Positions 20,450-63,906 of a DNA stretch of 64,000 nucleotides are shown here, piece after piece. Below the pieces are notes generated by a model. It did not search any database and had not been told where the DNA came from. It saw nothing but the letters and a program-made list of their open reading frames with translations. The translations under genes were made by a program, and so were the position numbers. How positions within the stretch are numbered: the stretch's first letter is position 1; each line of letters begins with the position of its first letter. Origin of the DNA: Minisyncoccia bacterium (GTDB taxonomy: Bacteria > Patescibacteriota > Minisyncoccia > Phycocordibacterales > UBA9973). The DNA lies in NCBI GenBank assembly GCA_049287305.1, contig JBAQFO010000014.1:453-64452 (forward strand). The letters run 5' to 3'.

Positions 20450-21742
20450 ATGAAACCAAATTTCCAACTCATTATAATCATAATCTTTATTGCTGCCGCA
20501 TTGGTAGGGATTTTGGTTTTCTCGGGGGCTATCCCGATAGGTAAAGATGGTGACGGCAACCTGGGGAATGTTGTCCTGTGGGGAACCGTGCGTTCGGGTC
20601 TTCTGGCGGAGCCGCTGGAGTTATTCAACGAAGCCAATCCTTCTTTTGTGGTTAAATACGTGCAAAAATCTCCAACGACTTTTGACCGAGACTTGCTGGA
20701 AGCGCTGGCTACCGGCAAAGGACCCGACTTATTTTTCTTGCCTGATGATTTGGCTTTCCACTATGCTAATAAAATTTTCTCGATTCCATACGCCAGTTTT
20801 CCTTTATCTTCTTTTAAAAATACATTCTCGGGCGCCGGCGAAGTGTTTCTCACTTCCAAAGGCATAATGGCCTTGCCTGTGTCGGTAGACCCGCTTGTTA
20901 TGTTCTACAACCGAAGTATTCTAGATGCTAATGGCATTGTTTATCCTCCGGTGTATTGGGAAGATTTGGCGGGAATGATTCCTACTCTGACAAAAAAAGA
21001 TGATACCGGGAAAATTACCCAAAGCGCTGTGGCCCTGGGTCACTCTTCCAACGTAGCTCACGCCAAAGAAATACTTATCGCTCTTTTTATGCAGGCCGGA
21101 AACCCGATTACCACCGAGACAAGCAGTGGGAAATTTAGTTCAAGCTTGGATTCGGCGGTGGGAAGCTATAACCTCCCGTCTATTTTAAAATTTTACACGG
21201 ATTTTGCCGACCCCAATCATCCGGCATATTCTTGGAATAAATCTTTTGCCAATTCCGATGAAGTTTTTTCCAGCGAGAATGTAGCTTTTTACTTCGGTTA
21301 CGCGAGTGAACTGGAATCTTTTGTAAGACGAAATCCGAACCAGAATTTTTTCGTGGCGCCCTTGCCCCAGATTAAAGATGCCAAATTTAAGCTGACAGGA
21401 GCTCGAGTTACCGGGCTTGCCATATCTTCCGCTTCTCGGAATTTCAATACTGCCTTTACCGCGGCGAGCTTGATGGCCACCACTGATTTTGCCAATAAAT
21501 TCGCCAAGGCGCAAAATCTTCCGCCCGCCCGCAGAGACCTTCTTTCAGTAAAGCCCGCAGATGCGTTCTCTCCTGTTTTTTTCAGTTCGGCTTTGTTCGC
21601 CAAAGGCTGGCTTGACCCTTCACCTGCCGATACCGATAGTATTTGGGCGGGGATGGTAAACGCCGTGCTTTCAAATAGCCTTTCCGTAGATGACGCAATC
21701 AAGGATGCCAGTTCTAAGCTTAACCTTTTATTAATTAAGTAA
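20450..21742 (+). CDS. Membrane-anchored extracellular solute-binding protein (SBP_bac_1-like).
   Basis: N-terminal TM anchor. VVLWGT...PDLFF...MALPVSVDPLVMFYN is typical of sugar-type periplasmic binding proteins. No cognate permease is nearby. Confidence 0.5.
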   Translation: MKPNFQLIIIIIFIAAALVGILVFSGAIPIGKDGDGNLGNVVLWGTVRSGLLAEPLELFNEANPSFVVKYVQKSPTTFDRDLLEALATGKGPDLFFLPDDLAFHYANKIFSIPYASFPLSSFKNTFSGAGEVFLTSKGIMALPVSVDPLVMFYNRSILDANGIVYPPVYWEDLAGMIPTLTKKDDTGKITQSAVALGHSSNVAHAKEILIALFMQAGNPITTETSSGKFSSSLDSAVGSYNLPSILKFYTDFADPNHPAYSWNKSFANSDEVFSSENVAFYFGYASELESFVRRNPNQNFFVAPLPQIKDAKFKLTGARVTGLAISSASRNFNTAFTAASLMATTDFANKFAKAQNLPPARRDLLSVKPADAFSPVFFSSALFAKGWLDPSPADTDSIWAGMVNAVLSNSLSVDDAIKDASSKLNLLLIK

Positions 21743-21746
21743 AAAA

Positions 21747-22154
21747 TTGGGTTTTAATTCCGCTAAAGAAATGAAAAAAACAACAAAATATTTAACAGTA
21801 TTAATAGTTTTCATGGTATTAATTACACCCCTTGTTTCATTTGGAGCAGGATTGGTTCCTGACTGTAGTCCTAAGTGTGGATGGAAAGATCTTATGTTTC
21901 TTGTAAACGGAGTAATAAATTTTCTTCTTTTTAAGATGGCTGTGCCTATTGCTGCTATTATGTTTGCATTTGCCGGGTTTAAAATGCTTACGGCTGGAGG
22001 AGAAGCCGCTAGTGCGAGAACAAAAGCCAAGGAAATATTCATAAACACGCTTTTCGGACTTATTATAGCTATAGCCGCTTGGCTCATTATTAGCACGCTT
22101 CTGTTTATTTTAGGATACGATGGGTCTTGGATAGGACTTAAAATTAGTTTATAA
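21747..22154 (+). CDS. TrbC/VirB2-like (T4SS-type) pilin-family protein; probable start Met21771.
   Basis: Signal peptide, a Cys pair (CSPKCGW), two hydrophobic helices separated by a short basic loop (GGEAASARTKAKE), and a conserved AxW near the C-terminus. Confidence 0.55.
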   Translation: MGFNSAKEMKKTTKYLTVLIVFMVLITPLVSFGAGLVPDCSPKCGWKDLMFLVNGVINFLLFKMAVPIAAIMFAFAGFKMLTAGGEAASARTKAKEIFINTLFGLIIAIAAWLIISTLLFILGYDGSWIGLKISL

Positions 22155-22161
22155 TATTAAA

Positions 22162-22539
22162 ATGAATTTTATAAAAAAAAGTTGGGTGCAGATTACGCTT
22201 ATAGCTGTCTATTTTTTATTACCGCTAATGTCTGTCGTGGCAGAAGGAGAAGTTCCGGGACCTTGCGACAAGTCAGGTAAAATTTGTAATCCCATTCCGG
22301 ACATTACTTCAATTCCTGGGCTTATTCAGATAGTCTTGGAAGGTGCTATAAAAATAGGTCTTCCGATTGTTGCGCTGGCTATCATATATGCCGGGTTTCT
22401 GTTTGTGGCTGCCAGGGGCAATCCCGAGAAGCTAAGCACAGCCAAAGACACTCTTTTATATACATTAATAGGAGCGGCGATACTCCTAGGTTCATGGGCC
22501 ATAGCAAAAATGATAGAAAGCACCGTGCTTGCATTATAA
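22162..22539 (+). CDS. TrbC/VirB2-like pilin-family protein.
   Basis: Same architecture: signal peptide, CDKSGKIC, TM1, ARGNPEKLSTAKD loop, TM2 with GSWAI. Confidence 0.55.
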   Translation: MNFIKKSWVQITLIAVYFLLPLMSVVAEGEVPGPCDKSGKICNPIPDITSIPGLIQIVLEGAIKIGLPIVALAIIYAGFLFVAARGNPEKLSTAKDTLLYTLIGAAILLGSWAIAKMIESTVLAL

Positions 22540-22553
22540 ATTAACAATTAATT

Positions 22554-23231
22554 ATGAAAAAAAGATTATTAAAATTTGTTTCGGTGTTTTCCCTGACAGC
22601 GTTCTTTCCGCTTGTCGCCTCGGCTCAGGTTTTGGGAGATATAGTAGTTACCATCCAGGATTTTTTAAATTCAATCGTTCCAGTTCTGATTGCGCTCGGA
22701 GTGGTTTACTTCGTGTGGGGGGTGGTTCAGTTTGTCATTGGAGATAACGAAGAAGCCAAGACAAAAGGCAAGGATAGAATAATTTTTGGCCTAATCGGAT
22801 TTGCCGTCATTATCGGACTTTGGGGTTTGGTGAACATAGTGGTGAACTCTTTGGGATTTGAAGCGGGGTCGCTCTCCGCGCCCGAACTTGCGCCTATTGC
22901 AACAGCTCCGGCGGACGGAACTTGCACTATGGGAACAAATTTTCAGGGTCTTCTTGGTTTCTTTACCTGTATAATCAACAATTCTGTTATCCCTTTGATT
23001 TTCGCCATTGCAGTAGTTATGTTTATATGGGGGGCTGTTAAGTTCTTTATTATAAATTCTGACGAGGAAGCGCAGCGAGAGCAGGGAAAGCAGTTTATGA
23101 TTTGGGGGATTATAGCGCTGACTGTTATGACAGCGGTGTGGGGCCTGGTGGGGCTTCTAGGTGAAACTTTCAACATAGGGGGCAGGGTGCTTCCGCAGGT
23201 TTGCCCTCCTGGCTCAGAACAGTGTAATTAG
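22554..23231 (+). CDS. Tandem-fused double TrbC/VirB2-like pilin-family protein.
   Basis: Two consecutive pilin-like modules, each with LxSIVPVLIALGVVYFVWG ... EEAKTKGKDRIIFG ... WGLV. An internal CTMGTNF...FTC Cys pair starts the second module. 225 aa. Confidence 0.55.
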   Translation: MKKRLLKFVSVFSLTAFFPLVASAQVLGDIVVTIQDFLNSIVPVLIALGVVYFVWGVVQFVIGDNEEAKTKGKDRIIFGLIGFAVIIGLWGLVNIVVNSLGFEAGSLSAPELAPIATAPADGTCTMGTNFQGLLGFFTCIINNSVIPLIFAIAVVMFIWGAVKFFIINSDEEAQREQGKQFMIWGIIALTVMTAVWGLVGLLGETFNIGGRVLPQVCPPGSEQCN

Positions 23232-23323
23232 GTAGATGCCCTTTATTTTGTATGTGTTATAATTGAAGTATATTATTAGTCATTATTATTAGGTCGCTTA
23301 ATTATTAAGTTAATTTATAAATT

Positions 23324-23722
23324 ATGAAAAAGAAATTGGTTATCTTGGCGGGTTTGGCTATGATGAGTCCTCTTGCGGCTTTCGCCCAGGTGGATACAAG
23401 TGGAGCTACCTCTACTTCATGTAGGTATGGTTCAGACGGAACTTTGTTTGGAATATTGTGCCGGGTTGGAGAATTCCTAAACTCAATCGTTCCCGTGCTT
23501 ATTGCTCTCGGAGTGGTTTACTTCGTGTGGGGAGTCATCAGCTTCGTTATGGCAGGGGATGAGGAGGCAAAGACAGCCGGAAGAGACAGAATCATCTTCG
23601 GTATCATTGGTTTGGCTGTTATCATCGGTATGTGGGGTCTTGTAAATCTTCTAAGAAACACATTTGATTTGAACAACACCACCGACATTGAGCTTCCAAC
23701 CGTGCCTGTTATTATTGAATAA
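23324..23722 (+). CDS. TrbC/VirB2-like pilin-family protein.
   Basis: Signal peptide, SCRYG...LC Cys pair, and the same conserved core. The DNA at 23485-23545 is near-identical to 22672-22735 of the previous gene. Confidence 0.55.
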   Translation: MKKKLVILAGLAMMSPLAAFAQVDTSGATSTSCRYGSDGTLFGILCRVGEFLNSIVPVLIALGVVYFVWGVISFVMAGDEEAKTAGRDRIIFGIIGLAVIIGMWGLVNLLRNTFDLNNTTDIELPTVPVIIE

Positions 23723-23728
23723 TAAAAT

Positions 23729-24055
23729 ATGGATTTATTTTCCACTAAAATTGCTTACGCCACCCTAGACAGCTTCCTCCTGAATGTGAGCAATACCATA
23801 ATAAATCCTCTCATAATATTCCTGTTTGCTTTGGCGATGGTGTTTTTCCTCTATGGTGTTCTTGAATTTATTTTGAATCAAGAAAACGAAGAAGCGAAAA
23901 CCAATGGCAAGAGCCATATGTTATGGGGGATTATCGGACTTACTATTATGATGGGAGTCTGGACAATCCTAGGGATGATTATAAAGACCTTCAACATACA
24001 GGATGTTGATGTAAGAGGAGGAAATATTAAAGTGGGGGATCAGTTAACTCCATAA
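23729..24055 (+). CDS. TrbC/VirB2-like pilin-family protein (shorter, no clear signal peptide).
   Basis: Conserved core (INPLIIFLFALAMVFFLYGVLEFI..NEEAKTNGKSHMLWGIIGL..GVWTILG). Confidence 0.45.
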   Translation: MDLFSTKIAYATLDSFLLNVSNTIINPLIIFLFALAMVFFLYGVLEFILNQENEEAKTNGKSHMLWGIIGLTIMMGVWTILGMIIKTFNIQDVDVRGGNIKVGDQLTP

Positions 24056-24095
24056 AAAATTCTAAAACCGGTAAAAAATAGAAGGTAAAAAGAGA

Positions 24096-24130
24096 AAAAG
24101 GCGTCCCGAGAGCGGGACGCCTTTTTGTTT
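24096..24130. terminator. GC-rich bidirectional terminator (GGCGTCCCG-AGA-CGGGACGCC flanked by T-runs on both strands).
   Basis: Perfect 9-bp stem. It sits exactly at the boundary between the pilin array (plus strand) and the high-GC operon (minus strand). Confidence 0.7.
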
Positions 24131-24200: not shown

Positions 24201-25250
24201 CTAAGCGCAACGTCCCCCACCTGGATAAATCCGGAAGGAGACATGCCCATTTTCAGGGTCGTTCGGGTCCCAAAACTTCTTGGCACCAGACCGCTGAGGT
24301 TCGGGGAGCTGCGAGCAGTCGTCCCCGGGGGTGAACAGGAAGGGCTTCTGCCCGGGATACTGCACCATGATCGGGGCGTCAGCTTCGAGGCTGAACGCGT
24401 AATCGGCAGTGACTTCCGTGGGCGTCATCTTCCTGATCTTCGACGGGAGCGACTTGGCGTGCTCCTGTCTCGGTGCGTTCTCACGAGCCTGAGGGGCTTG
24501 AGAGGACGGCGCCGGTGCTGCCTGTGCGGTGGAAGAGGCCGAACCTCCACCACCGAACCAGTAACGGTAGAACCTCCGCCACCAAGTCGGGATGACCCCG
24601 GCTTCTTCCTGGTTAGCGGACTTACCGCCGACCAGGGTGGTGGCACCATCTACGACTACGGGGACGACACCGCGTTCCGAGAACGCGGTGTCGGTGCTGG
24701 CGTGAGTCAGTTTGCCGCTCGCATCGAGCGGCAGAACGTTCTTGGCCGTGTGCGGCATGTTGAGAAGCAAGAACGTTACAACCGCAGCCGTGCCGAAGAT
24801 CCAACCTGCGACCTTCTTGTTGCCGCGACCGAACTCAGTGGCGACCCATCCGGCAATGAATGCCGCACAGGTCCAAAGGATGAGGTCAATGGCGATATGA
24901 CTCTGCCAGAACCAAACCCTACGGCCGAGATCGTCAAAATGATAAAACGCGTAGGCGTTCGAGACGCCCGTCACGCGCACCGCGATCATCATGACGCCGA
25001 CCCACACCATCAACATCAGGAAGAAGTCCTTGATGGCTCCGAAGAAGCCCTTCCGGCTTCCGCCGCCTCCGCCTCCGGCAGTTGCACCACCGGTGGTGGT
25101 GAAGTGAGACAGAAAACCCTTCCCCTTGGTGGCCAGGAACCAGACTCCGAGGAGTCCGATTACTGCCATGGGGAAGGAGATGGCGGGAAACTTCGTTGAC
25201 ACCCAGTAGGCGAGAAGTGCGACGGCTCCAGCTTCAATCAGTAGAATCAT
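24201..25250 (-). CDS. High-GC integral membrane protein of unknown function (N-terminal TM helices, Gly-rich linker, Trp-rich C-terminal half).
   Basis: 349 aa. GC about 58-60% against about 39% background. RBS AAAGGAA upstream. Last gene of a three-gene minus-strand operon. The antisense 318-aa ORF was rejected. Confidence 0.5.
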   Translation of the reverse strand: MILLIEAGAVALLAYWVSTKFPAISFPMAVIGLLGVWFLATKGKGFLSHFTTTGGATAGGGGGGSRKGFFGAIKDFFLMLMVWVGVMMIAVRVTGVSNAYAFYHFDDLGRRVWFWQSHIAIDLILWTCAAFIAGWVATEFGRGNKKVAGWIFGTAAVVTFLLLNMPHTAKNVLPLDASGKLTHASTDTAFSERGVVPVVVDGATTLVGGKSANQEEAGVIPTWWRRFYRYWFGGGGSASSTAQAAPAPSSQAPQARENAPRQEHAKSLPSKIRKMTPTEVTADYAFSLEADAPIMVQYPGQKPFLFTPGDDCSQLPEPQRSGAKKFWDPNDPENGHVSFRIYPGGGRCA

Positions 25251-25322
25251 GGGATGTTTTTCCTTTCAAATCAGTTACGGAGCGGGAAGCTCAGGTGAAC
25301 CCCCGCTCCTTGGTTTGTTTAC

Positions 25323-25757
25323 TTACGGCCAGTCCTTCGACCCGCCGTCCTTCGTTGGGTCGATAGGGCCCTTGAATCTCGTGGCTTCCGGAGTGTCTTT
25401 TCCGACGAACTCCTTGGCCTTTTCCTTGTAGGGGATTGACTTGGCCCAGTCAATCGCCTCACCGAGGGCTCCGCTAACTCCGTCGAGGTTCAGCTTGAAC
25501 CTCTCCTTCGCTTCGCTCTTCCTCGTCTCAAGGAGGGTTTCCAGCTTAGTCAGCTGTTCCTCCGAGAGGTCTTCCACGTCCGCCTGCGCGTGCAGGCTGA
25601 TGAGGTCCTCGATGTCGCTGACGAGCTTCTTCGCGTCGTCGGCGGTGTTGACCGGCCTCTTTTCAAGGTCCTCGATCGCGTCATCCGGGCCGTATCCACA
25701 GCCCGACAGCGAAAGGAGAACCAGCATCATGAGAGTTGCGAACGTTTTCAGTTTCAT
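25323..25757 (-). CDS. High-GC lipoprotein (signal peptide plus LSGC lipobox), acidic and helical.
   Basis: MKLKTFATLMMLVLLSLSGCG is a type II signal peptide. RBS GGAAGGAG. 144 aa. Confidence 0.5.
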   Translation of the reverse strand: MKLKTFATLMMLVLLSLSGCGYGPDDAIEDLEKRPVNTADDAKKLVSDIEDLISLHAQADVEDLSEEQLTKLETLLETRKSEAKERFKLNLDGVSGALGEAIDWAKSIPYKEKAKEFVGKDTPEATRFKGPIDPTKDGGSKDWP

Positions 25758-25773
25758 GTCGTCGTCTCCTTCC

Positions 25774-26316
25774 TTACTTTGACTGTGCTTTCAAGAACGT
25801 CTTCAGCATCTTCATCGTCTTTCTGGCCTCCAGCCAGTTGTCGACGAAAGACACCGGTCCGGCGATGATGGTCCAGAAGAGGGAATTCCAAAAGACTTTC
25901 CCCCAACTACCGTCACACCCGAAGTAGAACCCACGAATCCCTCGGCACGCATACGGGTTGTAGCCCGTTTTCTTTGCCGATGACGATCCGAAGAGCCAAT
26001 CCAGAGGATTGATATCCACGACGGGCTTGCCATTGAGGCCGATGTACCACATGGCGCCCGACAGAACAGTGAGACCGAGCAGGGCCCAGAAGACCCAGTC
26101 GTTGTCGGAGATGAGCGGGAGAAATTGCTCCCGCAATTTCTCGTCGTCTTCCTTCAGAAACCAGGCGATGACGACGAGGATGAGCATCATGACGACGATG
26201 GCGGTAACCTGAAACGCGGCGTAGCCGTATTTCAGAGAAACCGCCAAGAAGATGATGGTGAGAACCCACTTAAGCATACCAGTGGGCTCAGGCTTCGCAA
26301 TGTTTGTCACACCCAT
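25774..26316 (-). CDS. High-GC membrane protein of unknown function.
   Basis: 180 aa with 3-4 TM segments. RBS AAGGAG 7 nt upstream. The 5' UTR contains a perfect hairpin CACCTCT-TTCGG-AGAGGTG (26337-26360). Confidence 0.5.
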   Translation of the reverse strand: MGVTNIAKPEPTGMLKWVLTIIFLAVSLKYGYAAFQVTAIVVMMLILVVIAWFLKEDDEKLREQFLPLISDNDWVFWALLGLTVLSGAMWYIGLNGKPVVDINPLDWLFGSSSAKKTGYNPYACRGIRGFYFGCDGSWGKVFWNSLFWTIIAGPVSFVDNWLEARKTMKMLKTFLKAQSK

Positions 26317-27438: not shown

Positions 27439-27520
27439 GCCCGAGTGGCGGAACTGGTATACGCGCACGACTTAAAATCGTGTCTCGCAAGGGATGTGGG
27501 TTCGATTCCCACCTCGGGCA
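27439..27520 (+). tRNA. tRNA-Leu (anticodon TAA).
   Basis: Hand-folded. Anticodon loop CTTAAAA, long variable arm, T-loop TTCGATT. Confidence 0.8.
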
Positions 27521-27548
27521 CCGGGAAGAAGTTTTTTAAAATTTATTT

Positions 27549-27621
27549 GCGCCCTTAGCTCAGCTGGTAGAGCAGATCCCTCTTAAGGATAAGGTCGAAG
27601 GTTCGATCCCTTCAGGGCGCA
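27549..27621 (+). tRNA. tRNA-Lys (anticodon CTT).
   Basis: Hand-folded. Anticodon loop CTCTTAA, T-loop TTCGATC. Confidence 0.75.
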
Positions 27622-27655
27622 CCCTGTGCGAGTAGCAATGCACATTTTAAATTTT

Positions 27656-27737
27656 GCCGGGATGGCGGAATTGGTATACGCGCTAGTCTTAGGAACTAGT
27701 GTCGCAAGACTTGAGGGTTCGAGTCCCTCTCCCGGCA
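27656..27737 (+). tRNA. tRNA-Leu (anticodon TAG).
   Basis: Hand-folded. Anticodon loop CTTAGGA, long variable arm. Confidence 0.8.
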
Positions 27738-27825
27738 CATTGGCCAAGTAGTATGAGCGTAGTGAAAGGAAGATATGACATTCCTCTGCGTGCAGGTTTA
27801 GAAAAAATTCGGTCAATATGTTTTT

Positions 27826-27897
27826 GGCCTGGTAGCCAAGTAGTAAGGCATTCCTCTGCAAAAGGAATATACGTGGGTGCGATTCCCACCCAGGCCT
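27826..27897 (+). tRNA. tRNA-Cys (anticodon GCA).
   Basis: Hand-folded. Anticodon loop CTGCAAA, discriminator T. Confidence 0.75.
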
Positions 27898-27900
27898 CTT

Positions 27901-53750: not shown

Positions 53751-55512
53751 AGAAACACAAAATTTCTCTTGGTTAGATGTTCCAAAAAGTGTTTGGTATT
53801 TTCTGGACGATAGGAAAAAATTTCTGATTTCTTTTACTATTTTAATATTCGGTTTTCTTTATGAGCTTTTACCGGTATATGTAGTAGGGAAAATAGTGGA
53901 TTTTTTTACCACATATCAAAAAGGGGACTCATTGATGCGTTTTTATTTTTATATTTTATTTATTGGAGTTTCTTGGACTATAGTGTATTTGACTCGCATA
54001 CAAGTCAGGACGAATATAAACGTCATTGGACAACATGCCCGCATGAATGCTCGGGTTTGGGGGTTCCAAAGGTTAACCGAATTTTCTATTGGTTGGCATC
54101 AAAAAGAAAATACTGGAAACAAACTTCAAAGAATTTTTACAGGGTCAGACGCGATAAATGGCTGGATGAGAATCCTTAGAGCGGACCTTATAAAAATATT
54201 TGCTAACATACTGGGGGCCATGGTGTTTTTTATCTTTACTGACCTTAAATTTGCCGTAGTTGTTTTTCTGTATGCAACAATTTTTCTGTATACTGAATTC
54301 TATTTTGGAAATAAACTTTTGTTACTAAGCGATGAGTTTAATAAATTTAACCAAAAAGCTGGAGGCACCTATGTGGAATCTGCTAATAATATGTTAGCTA
54401 TAAAGGCGTTAGGAAATGAAAAGAATGCTGTGGAACGAGTGCTTGAAAAAGAAACTTATTCCAGGGATATTGCTATTCAAAAAGCTTATGTTCAAACTTC
54501 CAAATGGCGAATCTTGCATATTCTCGGGGGAATTACTTGGGTAATATTTTTGTATTTTGTCGGAAATTCTGTCATTTCCAATACAATGTCAATTGGAATG
54601 ATTGTGGTATTTTTCACTTATTTTTCTAAAGTAGGAGAAAATTTAGGGGCGACATCTTCTGCACACATGGATTTAATTGACCTCAAGTCGGACTTGGGGC
54701 AGATGATGCCGATATTTAACCAAACCGAGTTTGTGAAAACAGGAAAAGAGACTTTTCCAAAAAACTGGGATAAGATAGAGATAAAAAACGGAGTTATGGA
54801 TTACGGGTCCGGACAAAGCGGCTTAAATGATTTTAGTTTAACTTTGAGTAAAAATACGAAAACAGGAGTAGCAGGGCTGTCTGGTTCTGGCAAGTCCACT
54901 TTGGCAAAAATCATTTTAGGGTTATATGCTTTAAGGAAAGGAGAATTTAAGATAGGTAACAAGGACTATTATTCTATTTCTCACAATGAAACCCTAAGTA
55001 ATATAAGCGTGGTGCTTCAAGAAACTGAGCTGTTCAATCTTTCTTTGCGCGACAATATTACAATGATGCGAGAAGAAGACAGCAATCTTTTAGATATCGC
55101 GGTAAATATTTCTGAGTTAAAAGAAGTAATAGCTAAATTGCCTCAAGGCCTTGATTCCATGATAGGAGAGAAGGGTTATATGCTCTCCGGCGGAGAGCGC
55201 CAGCGCCTTGGCATCGCTCGGGCTATCTACAAGAGTGCGCCAATTATAATTCTGGACGAAGCTACTTCATCACTCGACTCGGAGACTGAAGGAAAAATAA
55301 TGGAAAAGCTTTTAGGAGAATATGGCAAAGATAAAACTTTCCTGATTATTGCCCATCGTTTGGGAACTCTGAAATATACCGATAATATTGTCGTAATGGG
55401 GCAAGGAAAAGTTTTGGAAGAGGGAAGTTATAATGCGCTTATGGACAACTTTGATTCTGTTTTTTATAGGATGAATAAAGAACAAAAAAATTCCAATGAA
55501 GGAGGAAACTAG
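53719..55512 (+). CDS. ABC exporter (fused TMD-NBD, type I exporter fold).
   Basis: Six N-terminal TM segments. Walker A GLSGSGKST, signature LSGGERQRLGIARA, Walker B IIILDEATSSLD. 597 aa. No C39 peptidase domain. Confidence 0.9.
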   Translation: MCMNTKKQINKETQNFSWLDVPKSVWYFLDDRKKFLISFTILIFGFLYELLPVYVVGKIVDFFTTYQKGDSLMRFYFYILFIGVSWTIVYLTRIQVRTNINVIGQHARMNARVWGFQRLTEFSIGWHQKENTGNKLQRIFTGSDAINGWMRILRADLIKIFANILGAMVFFIFTDLKFAVVVFLYATIFLYTEFYFGNKLLLLSDEFNKFNQKAGGTYVESANNMLAIKALGNEKNAVERVLEKETYSRDIAIQKAYVQTSKWRILHILGGITWVIFLYFVGNSVISNTMSIGMIVVFFTYFSKVGENLGATSSAHMDLIDLKSDLGQMMPIFNQTEFVKTGKETFPKNWDKIEIKNGVMDYGSGQSGLNDFSLTLSKNTKTGVAGLSGSGKSTLAKIILGLYALRKGEFKIGNKDYYSISHNETLSNISVVLQETELFNLSLRDNITMMREEDSNLLDIAVNISELKEVIAKLPQGLDSMIGEKGYMLSGGERQRLGIARAIYKSAPIIILDEATSSLDSETEGKIMEKLLGEYGKDKTFLIIAHRLGTLKYTDNIVVMGQGKVLEEGSYNALMDNFDSVFYRMNKEQKNSNEGGN

Positions 55513-57193
55513 ACAATGCAAAAATTGTAAAAAAGATTTCACAATAGAAAGTGATGATTTTAATTTTTACGAAAAAGTAAAGGTTCCACCCCCTACCTGG
55601 TGTCCGGAGTGCCGCCAGCTCAGGCGTTATGCCTGGCGCAACGAACGCAATTTATACAGGCGAGATTGCGACCTTTGCGGTAAAAGCACGGTAACTATTT
55701 ATTCTCCCAACAAGCCGCACAAGATGTATTGCCAGCCGTGCTGGTGGGGAGATGGCTGGGACCCCGCCTCATTTGGCCGGGATTTTGACTTTAATAGGCC
55801 ATTTTTTGAGCAATTTTCGGAGCTACAGCTGGAAGTGCCTAGGATGGCGCTTCTCAGTAAAAACAGCGTTAATTCCGAGTATACGAACCATTCCGGAGAT
55901 AATAAAAATGTCTACCTTTCGTTTGCTTGCTGGGGAGCTGAAAATATCCTTTACAGCACCTGGGTTATGAAATCTCGAGACTGCATGGACTGTAGCTTTG
56001 TTTACGAAAAAGGGGAACGACTATATGAATGTTTGGACACTAGGACTTCTTACGAATGCCAGTTCGGAACTTTCTTGAAAGACTGCTCTTCTTGTTTTTA
56101 TTGTTATGACTGCAGAGGATGTAATCACTGCTTCATGTCTTCTAATTTAAGAAACAAGAGCTATGTTTTTAAGAATGAGCAATATACCCGCGAAGAATAC
56201 CTGGAAAAGATAAAAGAATACGAATTGTCTTCCGCTATCATCCGAGAAGGATTATTGAAAGAATTTCAGGAATTGGTTCAGCATAACTCCGTTCATAGGT
56301 ATATCATCAGCGAAAGAAACGTGAACTCTGTCGGCTCCCTGATATTTGACTGCAAGAATGTAAAAGAATCTTTTGAGGTAAATAATGCCGAAGACTGCAA
56401 ATATATTTATGGAGCTTTGGATATTAAAGATTCCATGGATGTTTACCATGCCGGCTGGCCGACTACCGCCCTTAATTATGAATGCCATGGATGCACGCGA
56501 ATATATGATTGTAAATTTTGCCACCTCTGTTATGACAACAACAGCGTCTCGTATTCCGATAGCTGTCAAAACAGCCAGAACCTTTTTGGATGTGTCAGCA
56601 TTAAAAAAGGGGAGTTCATGATTTTTAACAAAAAATATTTGAAAGCAGACTATCTGGTGCTTAAGGAAAAAATAATTGAATACATGAAGAAAACCGCGGA
56701 ATATGGCGAGTTTTTTCCGCCGGAAATGGCTCCGATTTATTTCAACGAAACCCAGGGAAATTTGTATGCGCCAATGTCCAAAGAGGAAGTTCTGGCAAAA
56801 GGATGGCACTGGGAAGAAAATATTCCCGGAACTTTTGGAAAAGAAACGGTAAAAATTTCCGCCCTGCCTGATAAAATTGAAGATGTTTCGGATGCATATC
56901 TCAATGAAATCTTCGCCTGCTCGGCGTGTTCAAAAAATTACAACTTAACTTTAAACGAGTTTTTGTTTTACAAGAAGGAGAAAATACCCTTCCCGAGAAA
57001 GTGTCCCAATTGCCGATACAAAAGAAGATTTGATTTGAGGCCCCTCCGCAAGCTGTGGCATCGCTCCTGTATGTGTGATAGCAAGGACCATGGTCACGGA
57101 GAAGTTTGTTCAAACGAATTTAAAACTCCGTATGCGCCAAACCGAATAGAGAAGATATATTGTGAAAGCTGTTACAATAAAGAAGTATATTAA
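55496..57193 (+). CDS. Cys-rich multi-zinc-ribbon protein of an unrecognised family (paralog 1).
   Basis: 565 aa with about 38 Cys. N-terminal double ribbon CKNCKK...FYEK..VPPPTWCPECR...CDLCGK...YCQPCWWGDGWDP. Central CSSCFYCYDCRGCNHC cluster. A homologous C-terminal double ribbon CSACSKNY...FYKK..IPFPRKCPNCR...CMCD...YCESCYNKEVY. It overlaps the ABC gene end by 17 nt and has no SD, so it is translationally coupled. Confidence 0.6.
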   Translation: MKEETRQCKNCKKDFTIESDDFNFYEKVKVPPPTWCPECRQLRRYAWRNERNLYRRDCDLCGKSTVTIYSPNKPHKMYCQPCWWGDGWDPASFGRDFDFNRPFFEQFSELQLEVPRMALLSKNSVNSEYTNHSGDNKNVYLSFACWGAENILYSTWVMKSRDCMDCSFVYEKGERLYECLDTRTSYECQFGTFLKDCSSCFYCYDCRGCNHCFMSSNLRNKSYVFKNEQYTREEYLEKIKEYELSSAIIREGLLKEFQELVQHNSVHRYIISERNVNSVGSLIFDCKNVKESFEVNNAEDCKYIYGALDIKDSMDVYHAGWPTTALNYECHGCTRIYDCKFCHLCYDNNSVSYSDSCQNSQNLFGCVSIKKGEFMIFNKKYLKADYLVLKEKIIEYMKKTAEYGEFFPPEMAPIYFNETQGNLYAPMSKEEVLAKGWHWEENIPGTFGKETVKISALPDKIEDVSDAYLNEIFACSACSKNYNLTLNEFLFYKKEKIPFPRKCPNCRYKRRFDLRPLRKLWHRSCMCDSKDHGHGEVCSNEFKTPYAPNRIEKIYCESCYNKEVY

Positions 57194-57195
57194 CG

Positions 57196-58884
57196 ATGGA
57201 AACAAGAAATTGCCAAAACTGCAAAAAAGATTTCACCATAAAGAGTGAAGATTTTAATTTTTATGAAAAAATAAAAGTCCCGCCGCCGACTTGGTGTCCG
57301 GAATGCAGACTGCAGCGTAGGTATGCGTGGCGCAACGAACGCACCTTATATAGGCGAAATTGTGATTTGTGCGGAAAAAGCATGGTTACTTTCTATTCTC
57401 CCAATAAGCCGCATAAAGTATATTGCATACAATGTTGGTGGGGGGACGGCTGGGACCCTTCTTCTTTTGGCAGAGATTTTGATTTTTCCCGACCATTTTT
57501 TGAGCAGTTTAGAGAACTTCAGCTGAATGTTCCCAGAATTGCTGTTTTTAACAAAAATAATATTAATTCCGATTATACAAACCACTCAGGAGACAACAAA
57601 AATACCTACCTTTCTTCCTGTTGTTTTTACGACGAGGATGTTTTGTACTCGAATTGGATTATGAAATCACGGAATTGTGTTGATAATACCTATATTTCCG
57701 ATAGTGGCGAAAAGTTGTATCAATGTGTTGACTCGCGGAAGTCCTATCAATGTCAATATGGAGTTTTGCTGGAAAATTGCATGAATTGCTTTTATTGTTA
57801 TGATTGCCATAACTGCAGTGACTGTTTTTTGTCTTCAAATTTACGAAATAAAAGATATGTTTTTAAAAATCAGCAATATACTCGTGAACAGTATTTAGAA
57901 AAGGTAAAAGAATATAATCTAAGTTCATATCAAACCCGCGAAAAGTTAAATCAAGAATTCTTTGACCTGCGAATGAATGATTCTATCCACCGATATGTTA
58001 TAAGTGAACGCAATACAAACTGCACCGGTAGTATGATCCTTAGTAGTAAAAACGCAATAAATTGTTTTGACGTCGATTCTATTGAAGATTCGAAATATGT
58101 TTTTTCCGCCACAGGGTTAAAATCATCAATGGACCTATATCACATAGGCTGGAATTCGGAACTCGCATATGAGCTGCACGGAGGACAAGGCTATTATAAT
58201 TGTAAGTTTTGCCACCATGGCTGGGATAATACAAATATTACCTACTGCGATTCATGTCAAAATTGTCAGGAAATTTTTGGTTGCATCTCAGTAAAAAAAG
58301 GGGAGTATATGATTTTTAATAAAAAATATAGTAAAGAAGATTACTTTTCTTTAAAAGAAAAAATAATTGAACATATGAAAAAGACAGGAGAGTATGGTGA
58401 ATATTTTCCACCTTCTATCTCCCCAATTTGTTACAACGAAAGTATGGGGAATTACTATATGCCCGAAACCAAGGAAAGTATCGCTGATCGCGGCTGGCAG
58501 TGGGAGGAAAAAATTCCAGGAATATTTGGGAAAGAAACAATACAGCTTGAAGACGTCCCCGACTCAATTAAAGAAGTAGGAGATGATATTCTTGCGGCAG
58601 TATTTAGGTGTGTTAGCTGTAGTAAAAATTATAACATTGTTCCAAACGAACTTACTTTTTATAGAAAAGAAGAAATCCCTACACCGCGTAAATGTCCCGA
58701 ATGTAGATACAAAGATCGTTTTATTATTCGTTTGCCTCGCAGGGTTTGGCACAGAGACTGTATGTGTGAGAAGACACAACACGGTCATGAAAATAAATGT
58801 CCAAATGAATTTGAAACATCATATTCTTCTGATAGAAAGGAAAAGATTTATTGCGAAAGTTGTTACAATAAAGAAGTCTACTAA
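57196..58884 (+). CDS. Cys-rich multi-zinc-ribbon protein (paralog 2, about 55-60% aa identity to paralog 1).
   Basis: 562 aa. Same motif order, ending ...YCESCYNKEVY. Its ATG lies 3 nt after paralog 1's stop. Nucleotide identity to paralog 1 is about 75-80% over the N-terminus. Confidence 0.6.
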   Translation: METRNCQNCKKDFTIKSEDFNFYEKIKVPPPTWCPECRLQRRYAWRNERTLYRRNCDLCGKSMVTFYSPNKPHKVYCIQCWWGDGWDPSSFGRDFDFSRPFFEQFRELQLNVPRIAVFNKNNINSDYTNHSGDNKNTYLSSCCFYDEDVLYSNWIMKSRNCVDNTYISDSGEKLYQCVDSRKSYQCQYGVLLENCMNCFYCYDCHNCSDCFLSSNLRNKRYVFKNQQYTREQYLEKVKEYNLSSYQTREKLNQEFFDLRMNDSIHRYVISERNTNCTGSMILSSKNAINCFDVDSIEDSKYVFSATGLKSSMDLYHIGWNSELAYELHGGQGYYNCKFCHHGWDNTNITYCDSCQNCQEIFGCISVKKGEYMIFNKKYSKEDYFSLKEKIIEHMKKTGEYGEYFPPSISPICYNESMGNYYMPETKESIADRGWQWEEKIPGIFGKETIQLEDVPDSIKEVGDDILAAVFRCVSCSKNYNIVPNELTFYRKEEIPTPRKCPECRYKDRFIIRLPRRVWHRDCMCEKTQHGHENKCPNEFETSYSSDRKEKIYCESCYNKEVY

Positions 58885-61590: not shown

Positions 61591-63906
61591 ATGGAACTTC
61601 CGGAGATACCCGTAAATAAGGATATTACTTATTTGGGACTTACGACGTATCGGGACAAAAACCAACTTTTCGGCATAAAGCGCAAAGACAGGCGTCAGCA
61701 TGTTTATATTCTCGGTAAATCTGGAACGGGTAAATCCGTGCTGATGTTCAACATGATTATCCAGAACATCCAGAATGGCGAAGGAGTCTGTTTGGTTGAC
61801 CCGCACGGAGAAAACGTAGAAGCAATACTATCAGCTATACCAAGGCATCGCCTGAAAGATGTGATTTATTTTAATCCCGCAGATGCGGATTACCACATAG
61901 GCTTTAATGTCCTAGAGCTAATAGACCCACAATACAAGCATTTGGTGGCTTCAGGGCTTATGGGTATATTCACCAAAATTTGGGCGAACGCATGGAGCGC
62001 CCGAATGGAATATATTTTAAATAATACAATTTTAGCTCTACTCGACACGCCGGGAACGACCCTGCTTGGAATTCCAAGAATGCTCGTAGACAAAGATTAT
62101 CGACAAAAGATAATTTCTAATTTGAAAGACCCTGTTATTAAGGCTTTTTGGGTTCACGAATACGAAGCTTGGCAGGATAAGTTTAGAAACGAGGCAATCG
62201 CTCCGATTCAAAACAAAGTGGGGCAGTTTCTTTCAACGTCCATCATAAGAAATGTTGTGGGACAGGCGAAAAGCACTATCAATATTTTCGACATGATGAA
62301 CGAAGGAAAAATTTTCCTAGTAAACGTTTCCAAGGGACGCATCGGAGAAGACAACTCATCTCTTCTCGGAGGAATGATAATTACGAAGATTCAGCTGGCT
62401 GCCATGGAGCGCGTGCGTATTCCCGAAGAGCATCGTCGAGACTTCTATCTGTATGTGGACGAGTTCCAGAACTTCGTTACGGATGCTTTCGCGGGAATAC
62501 TTTCGGAAGCTAGAAAATACCGACTAAACTTAACTGTGGCCCACCAATACACGGCTCAGCTTGTTTCGGATAAAAGCACGGCTGTCCGTGACGCGGTGTT
62601 CGGCAACGTCGGAACTATAATTGTTTTTCGAGTGGGAGCCGACGATGCTGATTTTTTAGAAAAAGAATTTGAGCCGGAATTTACTCCTCAAGATATAGTC
62701 AACCTGCCAAACTACAAGGTTTACATGAAGTTGATGATAGACGGAGTTACCTCGCGCGGTTTTTCCGCTAAAACTCTTCCTCAGATGGTCAAAGGAGGGG
62801 ATAGGGAAATAGAGGAAGAAGTAATTAAATCCTCCCGTGAGCTTTATTGCAGGTCCAAAGAAGAAGTGGAGAGGGAAATAAATAATTGGAGCGGAATGTC
62901 CTTGGGGGAAAACGATTCTGGTGGAGGAAGCCAAGGGATGAGCATGGGAAGCTCAGGAGGGAGTAGTGGATATGGTGGCAGTGGCAACAGCGGAAGCGGA
63001 GGAAGCTTGGAAAAATTTGTAATAAATTGTTCTCTCTGTAAGCAGGAGAAAACCGTTCCTTTCAAACCTGAACCAGGACGGCCGGTCTACTGCAAAGAGT
63101 GTATTGCTAAAATAAAATCCGGGGAAGTAAAAGTAGAGAAGGGCTCTGAAAATCAAATAAAATACGATGACTCTAAATTTTTCAAACCACTAGCAGACCT
63201 GGGTATAGAATTTTATCCAAAAGAAGGCAAGGTCAAAGAGCAAGACCGGCACCCTGAAAGAGTAGATCCTCCACATACTTTAACAGGCAAGCCTGCTGTA
63301 GCTAGACCAGTTGACACTACGCCTCCTCCACCAAAACATAGAATCGTGGATGCGGTCAAAAAAGTATTTTCTCCCAATCCGCAAATGCCTGGCAAAGATA
63401 AAATAAAATCGCCCTATCCTCCTCAACCGCCGACACAAACTTCCATCCCGAGAAGCGAAAATCGAGCCCTAAAAGAAGTTTTAAATAAGGTCTTAGAAGA
63501 GACTCCTTCTCCGCAAGCTCCTGCTCCTGTAGCAGCACCCATGCCTACCCCGGAGCCAATTTCTCTGGATTCTTTAAAGGATAAAATAAAAGCTACGTCT
63601 ATGAGTGGGCAAACTAGGGAAGTAAAAAATGACCGAGCGGCAACGCAGGAAGAAATGGATAAGCTAAAAAATTTGATTACCGCAACCTCTACGGCTCCCA
63701 AGGAAACCGTGCCTACGCAAGAAGTTCCTCCTGCTCCGACTCCTCAACCCATCATAGCCCAAGCGTCTGTAGCTGAAACACCTGTTCCTCAAGCACCTGC
63801 ATCATCATCTGCTCCGATACCACAAAAACCTGCAAAAGCTTCGCCCGTGGATGGGCTACAGCCGAGGGAGGTGCCGGAGGACGTGCTTAGGAAAATTTTA
63901 GAGTAA
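61591..63906 (+). CDS. VirD4/TraG/TraD-like type IV coupling-protein ATPase, with a long Gly/Ser then Pro/Ala/Gln-rich low-complexity tail and an embedded C-terminal zinc ribbon.
   Basis: Walker A ILGKSGTGKS, Walker B FYLYVDEFQNF, and a TraG-D_C-like VVFRVGADDADFLEKEF. Ribbon CSLCKQEKTVPFKPEPGRPVYCKECIAKIK. 771 aa. Confidence 0.65.
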   Translation: MELPEIPVNKDITYLGLTTYRDKNQLFGIKRKDRRQHVYILGKSGTGKSVLMFNMIIQNIQNGEGVCLVDPHGENVEAILSAIPRHRLKDVIYFNPADADYHIGFNVLELIDPQYKHLVASGLMGIFTKIWANAWSARMEYILNNTILALLDTPGTTLLGIPRMLVDKDYRQKIISNLKDPVIKAFWVHEYEAWQDKFRNEAIAPIQNKVGQFLSTSIIRNVVGQAKSTINIFDMMNEGKIFLVNVSKGRIGEDNSSLLGGMIITKIQLAAMERVRIPEEHRRDFYLYVDEFQNFVTDAFAGILSEARKYRLNLTVAHQYTAQLVSDKSTAVRDAVFGNVGTIIVFRVGADDADFLEKEFEPEFTPQDIVNLPNYKVYMKLMIDGVTSRGFSAKTLPQMVKGGDREIEEEVIKSSRELYCRSKEEVEREINNWSGMSLGENDSGGGSQGMSMGSSGGSSGYGGSGNSGSGGSLEKFVINCSLCKQEKTVPFKPEPGRPVYCKECIAKIKSGEVKVEKGSENQIKYDDSKFFKPLADLGIEFYPKEGKVKEQDRHPERVDPPHTLTGKPAVARPVDTTPPPPKHRIVDAVKKVFSPNPQMPGKDKIKSPYPPQPPTQTSIPRSENRALKEVLNKVLEETPSPQAPAPVAAPMPTPEPISLDSLKDKIKATSMSGQTREVKNDRAATQEEMDKLKNLITATSTAPKETVPTQEVPPAPTPQPIIAQASVAETPVPQAPASSSAPIPQKPAKASPVDGLQPREVPEDVLRKILE

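What the first reader, a model, noticed from the sequence alone, without database searches (positions are those of the whole stretch)
21747..24055. Tandem array of five TrbC/VirB2-like pilin genes, including an internally duplicated fused gene and signs of gene conversion
Five consecutive small genes share one architecture: a signal peptide, a Cys pair, two hydrophobic helices separated by a short Lys/Glu-rich loop, and a conserved AxW/GxWG motif. This matches the T4SS-type pilin family that is widespread in CPR genomes. The 225-aa member is a head-to-tail fusion of two modules. The DNA at 22672-22735 is almost identical to 23485-23545 in a different gene, which implies recent duplication or gene conversion. 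No VirB4 or VirB6 gene is in the window, but a VirD4-like ATPase lies at 61.6 kb. The array may encode antigenically variable pilus subunits for host attachment or DNA uptake.
Basis: partly seen in the sequence, partly recalled or inferred. Interest (0 to 1): 0.55.

Follow-up and report, generated by a model that had tools for sequence, protein, structure and literature searches.

The report
Conserved VirB2-like pilin gene array
Five adjacent small genes in this ultra-small (Patescibacteria/CPR) bacterium encode six copies of a type IV secretion pilin-like membrane hairpin; such arrays are already described in this phylum, and this one is an old, stable gene set kept in about 80 related species, not a recently shuffled, antigenically variable one.

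Summary
Five + strand genes at 21771-24055 encode six modules of Pfam PF18895 (T4SS_pilin); one gene (g3, 225 aa) carries two modules. Relatives also hit TrbC/VirB2 (17 of 42 sequences, best E 1e-8).

- g5 has no signal peptide and no cysteines. The N-module of g3 has no Cys pair.
- The "almost identical" DNA is 52/64 nt (81%), with one 26-nt exact run.
- The two-module gene is not a recent fusion. Full-length homologs at 55-75% identity are common.

The block S1-MBL-GyrA-methyltransferase-SBP-g1-g2-g3-g4-g5-...-TIG-IF2 is collinear in about 80 species-level Nomurabacteria/Paceibacteria genomes. Each module's nearest relative is the same module type in another genome (249 of 260). That argues against concerted evolution or antigenic-variation cassettes. 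The gene-conversion signal is weak (p about 0.04 for a region picked after the fact).

The window has no VirB4 or VirB6. The "VirD4-like" ATPase is soluble and sits in the dnaK-dnaJ operon. Eight related genomes with this array are listed as VirB4-positive in a 2025 survey.

Patescibacterial VirB2-like pilin arrays were published in 2023-2025, so this is a new member of a known kind. Multi-module pilins (up to 17 modules elsewhere) are the one feature I could not find described.

The parts
21771..22154 (+). g1: single-module VirB2-like pilin, 127 aa (135 aa if the start is TTG 21747). It has a signal-peptide-like N-terminus, a Cys pair (C32, C36) and two hydrophobic helices.
   Evidence: PF18895 33.3 bits, TrbC 16 bits. 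Hydropathy and Cys positions. ATG start called on Logan contig L001. Orthologs found in 76 loci. Some orthologs carry fn3/Ig-like N-terminal domains.
22162..22539 (+). g2: single-module pilin, 125 aa, with a signal peptide and a Cys pair (C35, C42). It is the window gene closest to TrbC/VirB2.
   Evidence: PF18895 25.3 bits (just under the gathering score of 26.6) and TrbC 21 bits, E 3.8e-4. Weak tblastn hits to haloarchaeal plasmid genes annotated 'pilin'. Hydropathy.
22554..23231 (+). g3: two-module (tandem-fused) pilin, 225 aa. Layout: signal peptide about residues 1-24, hairpin 1 about 30-103, Pro/Ala/Thr linker about 100-129, hairpin 2 about 130-205, and a Cys-containing C-terminal tail. 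The N-module (22554-22898) has no Cys. The C-module (22899-23231) has C124/C139 and C217/C224.
   Evidence: PF18895 69.3 bits in 2 stretches. NF045849 44.9 bits. AF2 model. Full-length homologs at 55-75% identity, and 3-module versions.
23324..23722 (+). g4: single-module pilin, 132 aa, with a signal peptide and a Cys pair (C33, C46) that is invariant in 46 orthologs. It is a paralog of the g3 N-module.
   Evidence: PF18895 31.6 bits. A5 alignment invariants. g4 scores 135 bits against the g3N HMM and 90 against g3C, with g3N higher in 61 of 65 genomes.
23729..24055 (+). g5: single-module pilin, 108 aa, with no signal peptide and no Cys. It has a conserved N-terminus, MDLFSTKIAYA. It starts 6 nt after the g4 stop.
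   Evidence: PF18895 33.9 bits. Hydropathy shows only the two hairpin helices. Ortholog N-termini. It scores slightly but consistently higher against the g3C HMM than the g3N HMM (60 of 65 genomes).
22659..22834 (+). The stretch of the g3 N-module that is homologous to g4 at 23471-23646: 71% identical overall, with a 26-nt exact run at 22695-22720 = 23507-23532 inside helix 1.
24095..24126 (.). Strong bidirectional intrinsic-terminator-like hairpin (14-bp stem, 8 G-C pairs, T-runs on both strands). It closes the array and the convergent downstream gene.
   Evidence: (I2). No comparable hairpin lies between the gyrA/methyltransferase/SBP genes and g1.
20450..21742 (+). Context: a membrane-anchored solute-binding-protein gene (SBP_bac_1) immediately upstream. 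It is always adjacent to g1 in relatives and may be co-transcribed.
   Evidence: Pfam 59.2 bits. Synteny in 77 loci.
61591..63906 (+). It is soluble, carries a CxxC-x17-CxxC zinc finger, and belongs to the dnaK-dnaJ neighbourhood. It is probably not part of the pilin system.

Best explanation
This is a chromosomal, probably co-transcribed cluster of five genes. It encodes six VirB2/TrbC-like pilin modules of Pfam family PF18895, in a Nomurabacteria-type Paceibacteria (Patescibacteria/CPR) genome.

Proposed working:
- Each module is a helix-loop-helix membrane hairpin.
- g1-g4 are exported by Sec through cleavable signal peptides, so the N- and C-termini and the conserved Cys pairs lie outside the cell and the short Glu/Lys loop lies inside.
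- In g3, two hairpins are joined by an extracellular Pro/Ala-rich linker.
- g5 is a leaderless hairpin, translated 6 nt after g4.
- A VirB4-type T4SS encoded elsewhere in the genome would extract these hairpins from the membrane and assemble them into a pilus-like surface structure. In Saccharibacteria such a structure is essential for growth on a host cell.

The six module types are each conserved as separate ortholog groups across about 80 species. I therefore read them as non-redundant parts, such as major and minor subunits or a hetero-oligomer, and not as interchangeable antigenic variants.

Shown here: family membership, hairpin architecture, fusion, synteny, orthology. Inferred: Sec export and topology, dependence on a T4SS, pilus formation, hetero-assembly.
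For: Family:
- PF18895 is above the gathering score for g1, g3, g4 and g5, and just under it for g2.
- 42 of 42 related single-module proteins hit PF18895, and 17 of 42 hit PF04956 TrbC/VirB2, best E 9.8e-9.
- NF045849, a pilin-like conjugal transfer protein model, scores above its cutoff for g3.
- NCBI names many homologs 'pilin'.

Architecture and topology:
- Hydropathy and the AF2 model show the hairpins.
- The Cys pair ahead of helix 1 is invariant in g4 orthologs.
- g1 orthologs in relatives carry fn3/Ig-like domains N-terminal to the hairpin, which fits an N-terminus outside the cell.

Operon: gaps are 6-92 nt, a single strong terminator lies at 24095-24126, and none lies upstream.

Conservation:
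- The block is collinear in about 80 genomes.
- The nearest neighbour of a module is the same type in another genome in 249 of 260 cases.
- Median identity is 51-60%, against 64-66% for neighbouring non-essential-looking genes.

T4SS link:
- Eight genomes that carry this array are listed as VirB4-positive (PMC12102498 Table S1).
- The same paper reports 441 VirB2-like arrays of 2-11 genes in Patescibacteria.
- Wang et al. 2023 (PMC10633639) and PMC12857230 report an essential array of six pilins inside the T4SS locus of S. epibionticum.
- A weakly similar 'pilin' gene heads a T4SS-like cluster on a haloarchaeal plasmid.
Against: - No T4SS machinery gene is in the 64-kb window. The array sits among housekeeping genes.
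- PF04956 is below threshold for the window's own proteins, at 16-21 bits against 27.9.
- A profile of 42 modules finds no solved T4SS pilin in PDB sequences, only spurious GPCR hits.
- Foldseek of the g3 model finds nothing with E < 1.
- The AF2 model has only moderate confidence (pLDDT 66).
- No pilus has been seen in any Patescibacterium for this family.
- Covalently fused modules (2 here, up to 17 elsewhere) are not known in any characterised T4SS pilus.
Confidence: 0.6

Rival explanations
1. The array is an antigenic or host-range variation system. The paralogs are interchangeable pilus subunits, diversified and homogenised by recent duplication and gene conversion. This is the first reader's reading, and PMC12102498 suggests it for Patescibacteria in general.
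For: - A 26-nt exact run and 81% identity over 64 nt link the g3 N-module and g4.
- In helix 1, 11 of 20 aa-identical codons are identical, against 3 of 17 in helix 2 (Fisher p = 0.04).
- The best nucleotide match of the window's g3N helix-1 core is its own g4 (0.86), above any ortholog (0.81).
- Two genomes have g3N and g4 as mutual nearest neighbours.
- An extra g3N-like gene is present in about 20 loci.
Against: - Gene number, order and type are fixed across about 80 species.
- 249 of 260 modules are closest to the same type in another genome.
- Within-genome paralog codon identity (0.41-0.46) is only slightly above the cross-genome baseline (0.35-0.41).
- The helix-1 motif is nearly invariant at the protein level in all orthologs, so purifying selection explains most of the DNA similarity.
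- The p-value comes from a region chosen after seeing it.
- The pilins diverge more slowly than the nearby TIG surface protein.
Confidence: 0.1
2. The proteins are VirB2-family hairpins but do not form an extended pilus. They stay in the membrane as a hetero-oligomeric ring or channel, either as part of the monoderm-type T4SS or as an independent small-membrane-protein complex.
For: - Gram-positive-type T4SSs generally lack pili (PMC12102498; PMC10633639).
- Fused versions with 2-17 hairpins exist. They are easier to picture as polytopic membrane proteins than as filament subunits.
- g5 has no leader.
- The array is unlinked to T4SS genes.
- No similarity to solved pilus subunits was detected.
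Against: - Homology to TrbC/VirB2, whose known role is pilus formation.
- Conserved extracellular Cys pairs and N-terminal fn3/Ig domains on g1 orthologs suggest exposed, interaction-competent surfaces.
- In VirB2-type pili both termini face outward (established knowledge), so an outside linker between modules is compatible with a filament.
Confidence: 0.25
3. The hairpin proteins work with the adjacent solute-binding protein as an unconventional uptake system. They are unrelated to type IV secretion in this lineage.
For: - The SBP_bac_1 gene directly precedes g1 in 77 loci with short gaps.
- No terminator lies between them.
- No ABC permease or ATPase partner for the SBP is nearby.
Against: - The whole 15-kb neighbourhood, from S1 to DUF4446, is collinear in these genomes, so adjacency carries little functional information.
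- The proteins match pilin families, not permease families.
- In other Patescibacteria the same family clusters with virB4 (PMC12102498).
Confidence: 0.05

Closest known systems
VirB2-like pilin arrays of Patescibacteria: the S. epibionticum ML1 essential array of six pilins, the TM7x array, and the 441 arrays surveyed in PMC12102498
   Same: - Same Pfam family (PF18895/PF04956) and the same phylum.
- Tandem arrays of divergent paralogs. Here within-array identity is about 17-27% for distant pairs and up to 57% for g3N/g4. The paper reports a mean of 25% and a maximum of 54%.
- Six hairpin modules, as in S. epibionticum.
- No relaxase or typical coupling protein nearby.
   Different: - This array is not in a T4SS locus. 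It sits between gyrA-methyltransferase-SBP and an IF-2 region.
- One gene is a conserved two-module fusion.
- One gene lacks a leader.
- The array is shown here to be an orthologous, collinear set across about 80 species.
- I found none of these points described in the papers I could search.
TrbC/VirB2 conjugative pilins of diderm T4SSs (A. tumefaciens VirB2, RP4 TrbC; Pfam PF04956)
   Same: - A small pre-protein with a leader.
- Two hydrophobic helices separated by a short charged loop.
- Weak to significant profile similarity (window g1/g2 16-21 bits; relatives up to E 1e-8).
   Different: - The window proteins score below the PF04956 threshold.
- Leaders are short and ordinary rather than long.
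- No adjacent virB3/virB4.
- Multiple paralogs and fused modules.
- The host is a monoderm.
- Cyclisation and phospholipid binding are unknown.
Mbov_0395-family pilin-like conjugal transfer proteins of Mycoplasma ICEs (NCBIfam NF045849)
   Same: - A two-helix hairpin protein of a wall-less or monoderm organism.
- g3 scores 44.9 bits against a cutoff of 40; the other four score 26-28.
   Different: - g3 passes only because two modules add up. No single module reaches the cutoff.
- The window has no ICE context.
Multi-copy VirB2 paralogs of Bartonella and Anaplasma T4SSs
   Same: Tandem amplification of pilin genes. PMC12102498 cites these as the model for antigenic or host-range variation.
   Different: Here the paralogs are ancient, ordered and individually conserved, with no sign of ongoing diversification or homogenisation.

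Membership tests
Pfam PF18895 T4SS_pilin | Whole-protein score at or above the gathering score (26.6 bits) | tested here: met
   g1 33.3, g3 69.3 (two stretches), g4 31.6 and g5 33.9 bits. g2 scores 25.3, just below the cutoff, but its orthologs pass: 42 of 42 related proteins hit at E <= 0.01.
Pfam PF04956 TrbC/VirB2 pilin | Whole-protein score at or above the gathering score (27.9 bits) | tested here: not met
   Window proteins: g1 16.1 bits, g2 21.0 bits, others no hit. Homology is still supported at family level: 17 of 42 relatives hit at E <= 0.01, best 9.8e-9, and g1 orthologs score 18.6-24 bits.
VirB2/TrbC-type T4SS pilin (functional class) | Leader peptide followed by two hydrophobic helices separated by a short hydrophilic loop | tested here: met
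   Hydropathy, AF2 helices and the alignment. Exceptions: g5 has no leader, and the second module of g3 has a linker instead of a leader.
VirB2/TrbC-type T4SS pilin (functional class) | Encoded with T4SS machinery genes (virB3/virB4/virB6) in one locus | tested here: not met
   No such Pfam hit in any ORF of 500 aa or more, nor in the flanking genes. The relatives' loci show the same housekeeping context.
VirB2/TrbC-type T4SS pilin (functional class) | A VirB4 ATPase is present somewhere in the same genome | not testable with these tools
   Only 64 kb of the 210-kb contig was available. Indirect support: eight related genomes with the same array are listed as VirB4-positive in PMC12102498 Table S1.
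VirB2/TrbC-type T4SS pilin (functional class) | Structural similarity to solved conjugative pilins (TraA, VirB2 and others) | tested here: inconclusive
VirB2/TrbC-type T4SS pilin (functional class) | Polymerises into an extracellular pilus | not testable with these tools
   Needs microscopy or biochemistry.
Type IV pilus (T4P) pilins | Class III signal peptide (G/FTLxE) with an N-terminal hydrophobic helix and a globular head | tested here: not met
   The sequences have no such motif. There is no T4P pilin Pfam hit; the only trace is ComGG at E 0.18 for g5 in NCBIfam.
Sortase-dependent Gram-positive pilins | C-terminal LPXTG sorting signal | tested here: not met
   Only non-significant matches (E 5-7) to the anchor models.

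The most novel reading that the evidence does not exclude
The conserved two-module gene g3, the 3-module versions in relatives, and proteins with up to 17 tandem hairpins in other uncultured bacteria and Altiarchaeales may represent a 'concatenated pilin' design. In that design, neighbouring subunits of a T4SS pilus or pilus-like assembly are covalently linked through an extracellular linker. g3 (N+C fused) and g4+g5 (split, 6 nt apart) would be two alternative forms of the same heterodimeric building block. No characterised T4SS pilus is built this way, and I found no description of it in the searchable literature.
Probability: 0.25. Interest if true: 0.6.

Novelty: new member of a known kind. 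Interest (0 to 1): 0.35.

Why it matters
The T4SS and its pilin array are among the few envelope systems shown to be essential for the epibiotic life of a Patescibacterium. What the pilins build and transport is unknown.

In this large environmental lineage (Nomurabacteria/Paceibacteria), the array is a fixed set of six distinct modules rather than a variable cassette. That points to a defined hetero-assembly.

The natural two-module fusion, with its split counterpart g4+g5, gives a testable hint about which modules sit next to each other.

For genome annotation, the case shows three things:
- These arrays can lie far from virB4.
- A nearby 'VirD4-like' hit can be a chaperone-operon ATPase and not a coupling protein.
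- DNA similarity between paralogous transmembrane helices is not by itself evidence of gene conversion.

Tried and rejected
- Fold search of the AF2 model of g3 against the PDB (Foldseek): no meaningful hits.
- Profile of 42 modules against PDB sequences: only spurious GPCR matches.
- tblastn of g3 against plasmids: no match.
- tblastn of g2 against plasmids: only weak haloarchaeal hits.
- Exact look-up of the VirD4-like protein: not on record. The 210-kb source contig could not be fetched, so VirB4/VirB6 could not be sought in the same genome.
- Idea that g4-g5 could be joined by stop-codon read-through, because they share a frame in the window: rejected. Same-frame arrangement occurs in 27 of 68 genomes, about chance.
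- Idea of wholesale concerted evolution: rejected by nearest-neighbour analysis.
- Idea that the array is part of a mobile element: no integrase, transposase or relaxase, and the flanks are collinear housekeeping genes in all relatives.
- Rfam and tRNA scans: nothing inside the array.
Full report
**What is in the sequence**

Five + strand ORFs lie head to tail:
- g1: 21771-22154 (ATG; the ORF opens at TTG 21747)
- g2: 22162-22539
- g3: 22554-23231
- g4: 23324-23722
- g5: 23729-24055

The gaps between them are 7, 14, 92 and 6 nt. The antisense ORFs over the same ground have no support. An independent short-read assembly calls the same five genes and puts the g1 start at ATG 21771.

A strong bidirectional terminator-like hairpin (14-bp stem) lies at 24095-24126, just after g5. 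Nothing comparable separates the upstream gyrA, methyltransferase and solute-binding-protein (SBP) genes from g1. No Rfam family or tRNA falls inside the array.

**Family assignment**

- Pfam PF18895 (T4SS_pilin, gathering score 26.6) scores 33.3 (g1), 25.3 (g2), 69.3 in two stretches (g3), 31.6 (g4) and 33.9 bits (g5).
- PF04956 (TrbC/VirB2) gives only sub-threshold hits for g1 (16 bits) and g2 (21 bits, E 3.8e-4).
- NCBIfam NF045849, the Mycoplasma ICE pilin-like conjugal transfer protein, is above its cutoff only for the two-module g3.
- I then scanned 42 single-module orthologs and paralogs from ten genomes. All 42 hit PF18895, and 17 also hit TrbC/VirB2, best E 9.8e-9.

So the family is homologous to VirB2/TrbC at profile level, even though the window's own proteins do not pass that model.

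**Architecture**

- Hydropathy shows a signal-peptide-like segment plus two hydrophobic helices in g1, g2 and g4.
- g3 has a signal peptide plus four helices.
- g5 has two helices and no leader.
- An AlphaFold2 model of g3 (23-sequence alignment, pLDDT 66) gives an N-terminal helix, two helical hairpins (24-62/66-99 and 130-167/172-205) and a disordered linker at 100-129.
- One Trp in helix 2 is invariant across the six modules, and the inter-helix loops are Glu/Lys-rich.
- Cys pairs ahead of helix 1 occur in g1, g2, g4 and the C-module of g3. They are absent from g5 and from the N-module of g3.
- In 46 g4 orthologs both cysteines are invariant. Most g3 orthologs do have a Cys pair in the N-module, so the window has lost it.

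**The "near-identical" DNA**

At offset 812, the stretch 22672-22735 matches 23484-23547 at 52 of 64 positions (81%). The only exact run is 26 nt, 22695-22720 = 23507-23532. The whole homologous stretch, 22659-22834 vs 23471-23646, is 71% identical.

The run lies in helix 1, where g3N and g4 share 21 consecutive identical residues. Among aa-identical codons, 11 of 20 are identical in helix 1 and 3 of 17 in helix 2 (Fisher p = 0.04). That region was chosen after seeing it.

The baseline codon identity between orthologs, or between paralogs from different genomes, is 0.35-0.41. Within-genome g3N/g4 pairs average 0.41-0.46. A short conversion tract is possible but not demonstrated. Strong purifying selection on a nearly invariant helix-1 motif explains most of the similarity.

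**Relatives and synteny**

- g3 is identical to an NCBI protein of a 'Minisyncoccia bacterium' MAG on a contig of 210,755 bp. It has hundreds of full-length homologs at 55-75% identity, many named 'pilin'. The two-module fusion is therefore old.
- Some homologs have three modules.
- A scan of species-representative genomes returned 80 loci, all Nomurabacteria/Paceibacteria-type MAGs.
- tblastn with the window's proteins shows one collinear block in nearly all of them: S1(-), MBL-fold, GyrA, methyltransferase, SBP, g1, g2, g3, g4, g5, a variable stretch, TIG(-), IF-2(-), DUF4446(-).
- An HMM of the module finds 5-6 pilin genes with 6-7 modules per locus. About 20 loci have an extra ~100-aa gene before g3. 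That extra module is fused into g3 in three loci. In the most divergent loci the g3 position is occupied by separate single-module genes.
- In a joint alignment of 260 modules from 65 genomes, the nearest neighbour is the same module type in another genome in 249 cases.
- Type-specific HMMs show that g4 and the extra gene are close paralogs of the g3 N-module. g5 scores slightly but consistently higher against the g3 C-module (60 of 65 genomes). g1 and g2 are distant.
- Median identity to the window across loci: g1 51%, g2 58%, g3 55%, g4 54%, g5 60%. For comparison: SBP 64%, methyltransferase 66%, GyrA 87%, TIG surface protein 42%.

This is the pattern of an ancient, non-redundant gene set. 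It is not the pattern of a variation cassette.

**Link to a T4SS**

- Every ORF of 500 aa or more in the window was scanned: SecA, GyrA, IF-2, ClpB, TypA, AlaRS, an ABC exporter, DnaK, two unknown zinc-finger proteins, and the VirD4-like ATPase. None is VirB4 or VirB6.
- The VirD4-like protein (TrwB_AAD_bind 40.6 bits, T4SS-DNA_transf 32, TraG-D_C 25) starts directly with its P-loop domain and has no membrane anchor.
- It carries a CxxC-x17-CxxC zinc finger. In two relatives it lies between dnaK and dnaJ, next to a second DUF87-type ATPase, with no T4SS genes nearby. I would not count it as the coupling protein of this system.
- I could not fetch the rest of the source contig.
- Indirectly, eight of the related genomes that carry this array are listed as VirB4-positive in Table S1 of Quiñonero-Coronel et al. 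2025.
- A weakly similar gene (E 0.03) annotated 'pilin' heads a T4SS-like cluster on a Natrinema megaplasmid.

**Comparison with what is known**

- PMC12102498 searched 3,035 Patescibacteria genomes with PF04956 and PF18895. It reports 441 arrays of 2-11 VirB2-like genes (mean identity 25%, maximum 54%), with pilins near virB4 in 1,135 of 1,948 assemblies. It also suggests antigenic or host-range variation.
- Wang et al. 2023 found the pilin series in the S. epibionticum T4SS cluster to be essential.
- A 2025 review counts six VirB2-like pilins there and raises the possibility of a pilus in a monoderm.

The window's array is thus a new member of a published class. What I did not find described (subscription journals were not searched):
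- the conserved synteny away from virB4 in this family;
- the leaderless g5 type, with its conserved MDLFSTKIAYA start;
- fn3/Ig-like N-terminal domains on some g1 orthologs;
- multi-module fusions.

A profile of the six window modules, run against 1.84 billion representative proteins, finds 46,471 family members at E <= 0.001. Among the top hits are proteins with 3-17 tandem modules, including a 1,775-aa protein with 17 hairpins and Altiarchaeales proteins with about 10.

**Most likely mechanism**

- Shown: these are PF18895 hairpin proteins, six modules in five genes, probably one transcription unit, and each module type is conserved.
- Inferred from the VirB2 family and from S. epibionticum: g1-g4 are exported through Sec and inserted with both termini outside. 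The conserved Cys pairs and the extracellular-type domains fused N-terminally in relatives fit this topology. A VirB4-type machine encoded elsewhere then extracts and assembles them.
- Inferred from conservation: the modules have distinct roles, such as major and minor subunits or a hetero-oligomer.
- Because both termini of a VirB2-type hairpin face outward, a linker between two modules is topologically allowed. g3 (fused) and g4+g5 (split, 6 nt apart) may be two forms of one heterodimeric unit. The g4/g3N relation is clear. The g5/g3C relation is weak but consistent.
- Rivals: a membrane-resident ring or channel rather than a pilus (0.25), a variation cassette (0.1), and an SBP-linked uptake function (0.05).

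**Verdict**

The claims of recent duplication or gene conversion and of antigenic variability are not supported, and the VirD4 link is doubtful. It is a new member of a known kind, with moderate interest that rests mainly on the conserved fused pilin.

Noticed in passing
window 24201-26316 (- strand ORFs 24201-25250, 25323-25757, 25774-26316): A GC-rich island (55-64% GC against 41.7% for the window) lies directly after the pilin array. It encodes a 349-aa polytopic, Gly-rich membrane protein with no Pfam hit, a 144-aa protein with a lipobox-like LSGC, and a 180-aa protein. The same position is GC-enriched by 4-14 points in all 17 related loci checked, although the proteins there are poorly conserved (24-53% identity). 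Unexplained.
   Followed up: partly
window 61591-63906; L084 10001-13482; L086 10001-17573: The VirD4/TrwB-like ATPase has no membrane anchor and carries a CxxC-x17-CxxC zinc finger and a long Pro-rich tail. In relatives it sits between dnaK and dnaJ with a second DUF87/TraG-D_C ATPase. It looks like a chaperone-operon-associated ATPase rather than a T4SS coupling protein.
   Followed up: partly
window 55496-57193 and 57196-58884: Two adjacent paralogous proteins of about 565 aa have no family assignment apart from a weak N-terminal treble-clef zinc finger (zf_Tbcl_2). The same finger type occurs in the VirD4-like ATPase 3 kb downstream. Homologs are present at the same place in L086.
   Followed up: no
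P0257 (1775 aa), P0258, P0253, P0279, P0316, P0366: Proteins made of 6-17 tandem PF18895-like hairpin modules exist in public metagenomes. Each repeat has a Cys pair in its linker. Two of the clusters come from Candidatus Altiarchaeales MAGs. I found no description of such 'poly-pilin' proteins.
   Followed up: partly
L076 7280-9133, L068 8294-9436, L067 8203-9567, L083 1470-2522, L042 8004-8969: In several relatives the g1 ortholog is a 250-617-aa protein with the pilin hairpin at its C-terminus. The N-terminal extension is fn3-like or DUF5018/Ig-like in two cases, which suggests a pilin that displays an extracellular domain.
   Followed up: partly
L001 and L002 (Logan contigs of SRR28062879 / SRR28062869): Two independent short-read contigs identical to the window both end at or near g3. 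L001 stops about 100 nt after g3, and L002 begins 71 nt before it. The assembly breaks are possibly caused by the g3/g4 similarity.
   Followed up: no
L088 (Natrinema versiforme plasmid pNVE500, 447376-459124): A haloarchaeal megaplasmid gene annotated 'pilin', weakly similar to g2, is the first gene of a cluster. The cluster includes a 1102-aa 'type IV secretory system conjugative DNA transfer' protein and a 1030-aa 'TraM recognition domain' protein. The plasmid is typed MPF_T.
   Followed up: partly
window 27439-27898: A cluster of four tRNA genes (Leu-TAA, Lys-CTT, Leu-TAG, Cys-GCA) lies just beyond the TIG-domain gene that bounds the variable GC-rich stretch.
   Followed up: no
window 22554-22898 (g3 N-module): The window's g3 N-module lacks the Cys pair (C...GIGxLIC) that most g3 orthologs have before helix 1. 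This is a lineage-specific loss, also seen in a few homologs such as P0020, P0027 and P0090.
   Followed up: no
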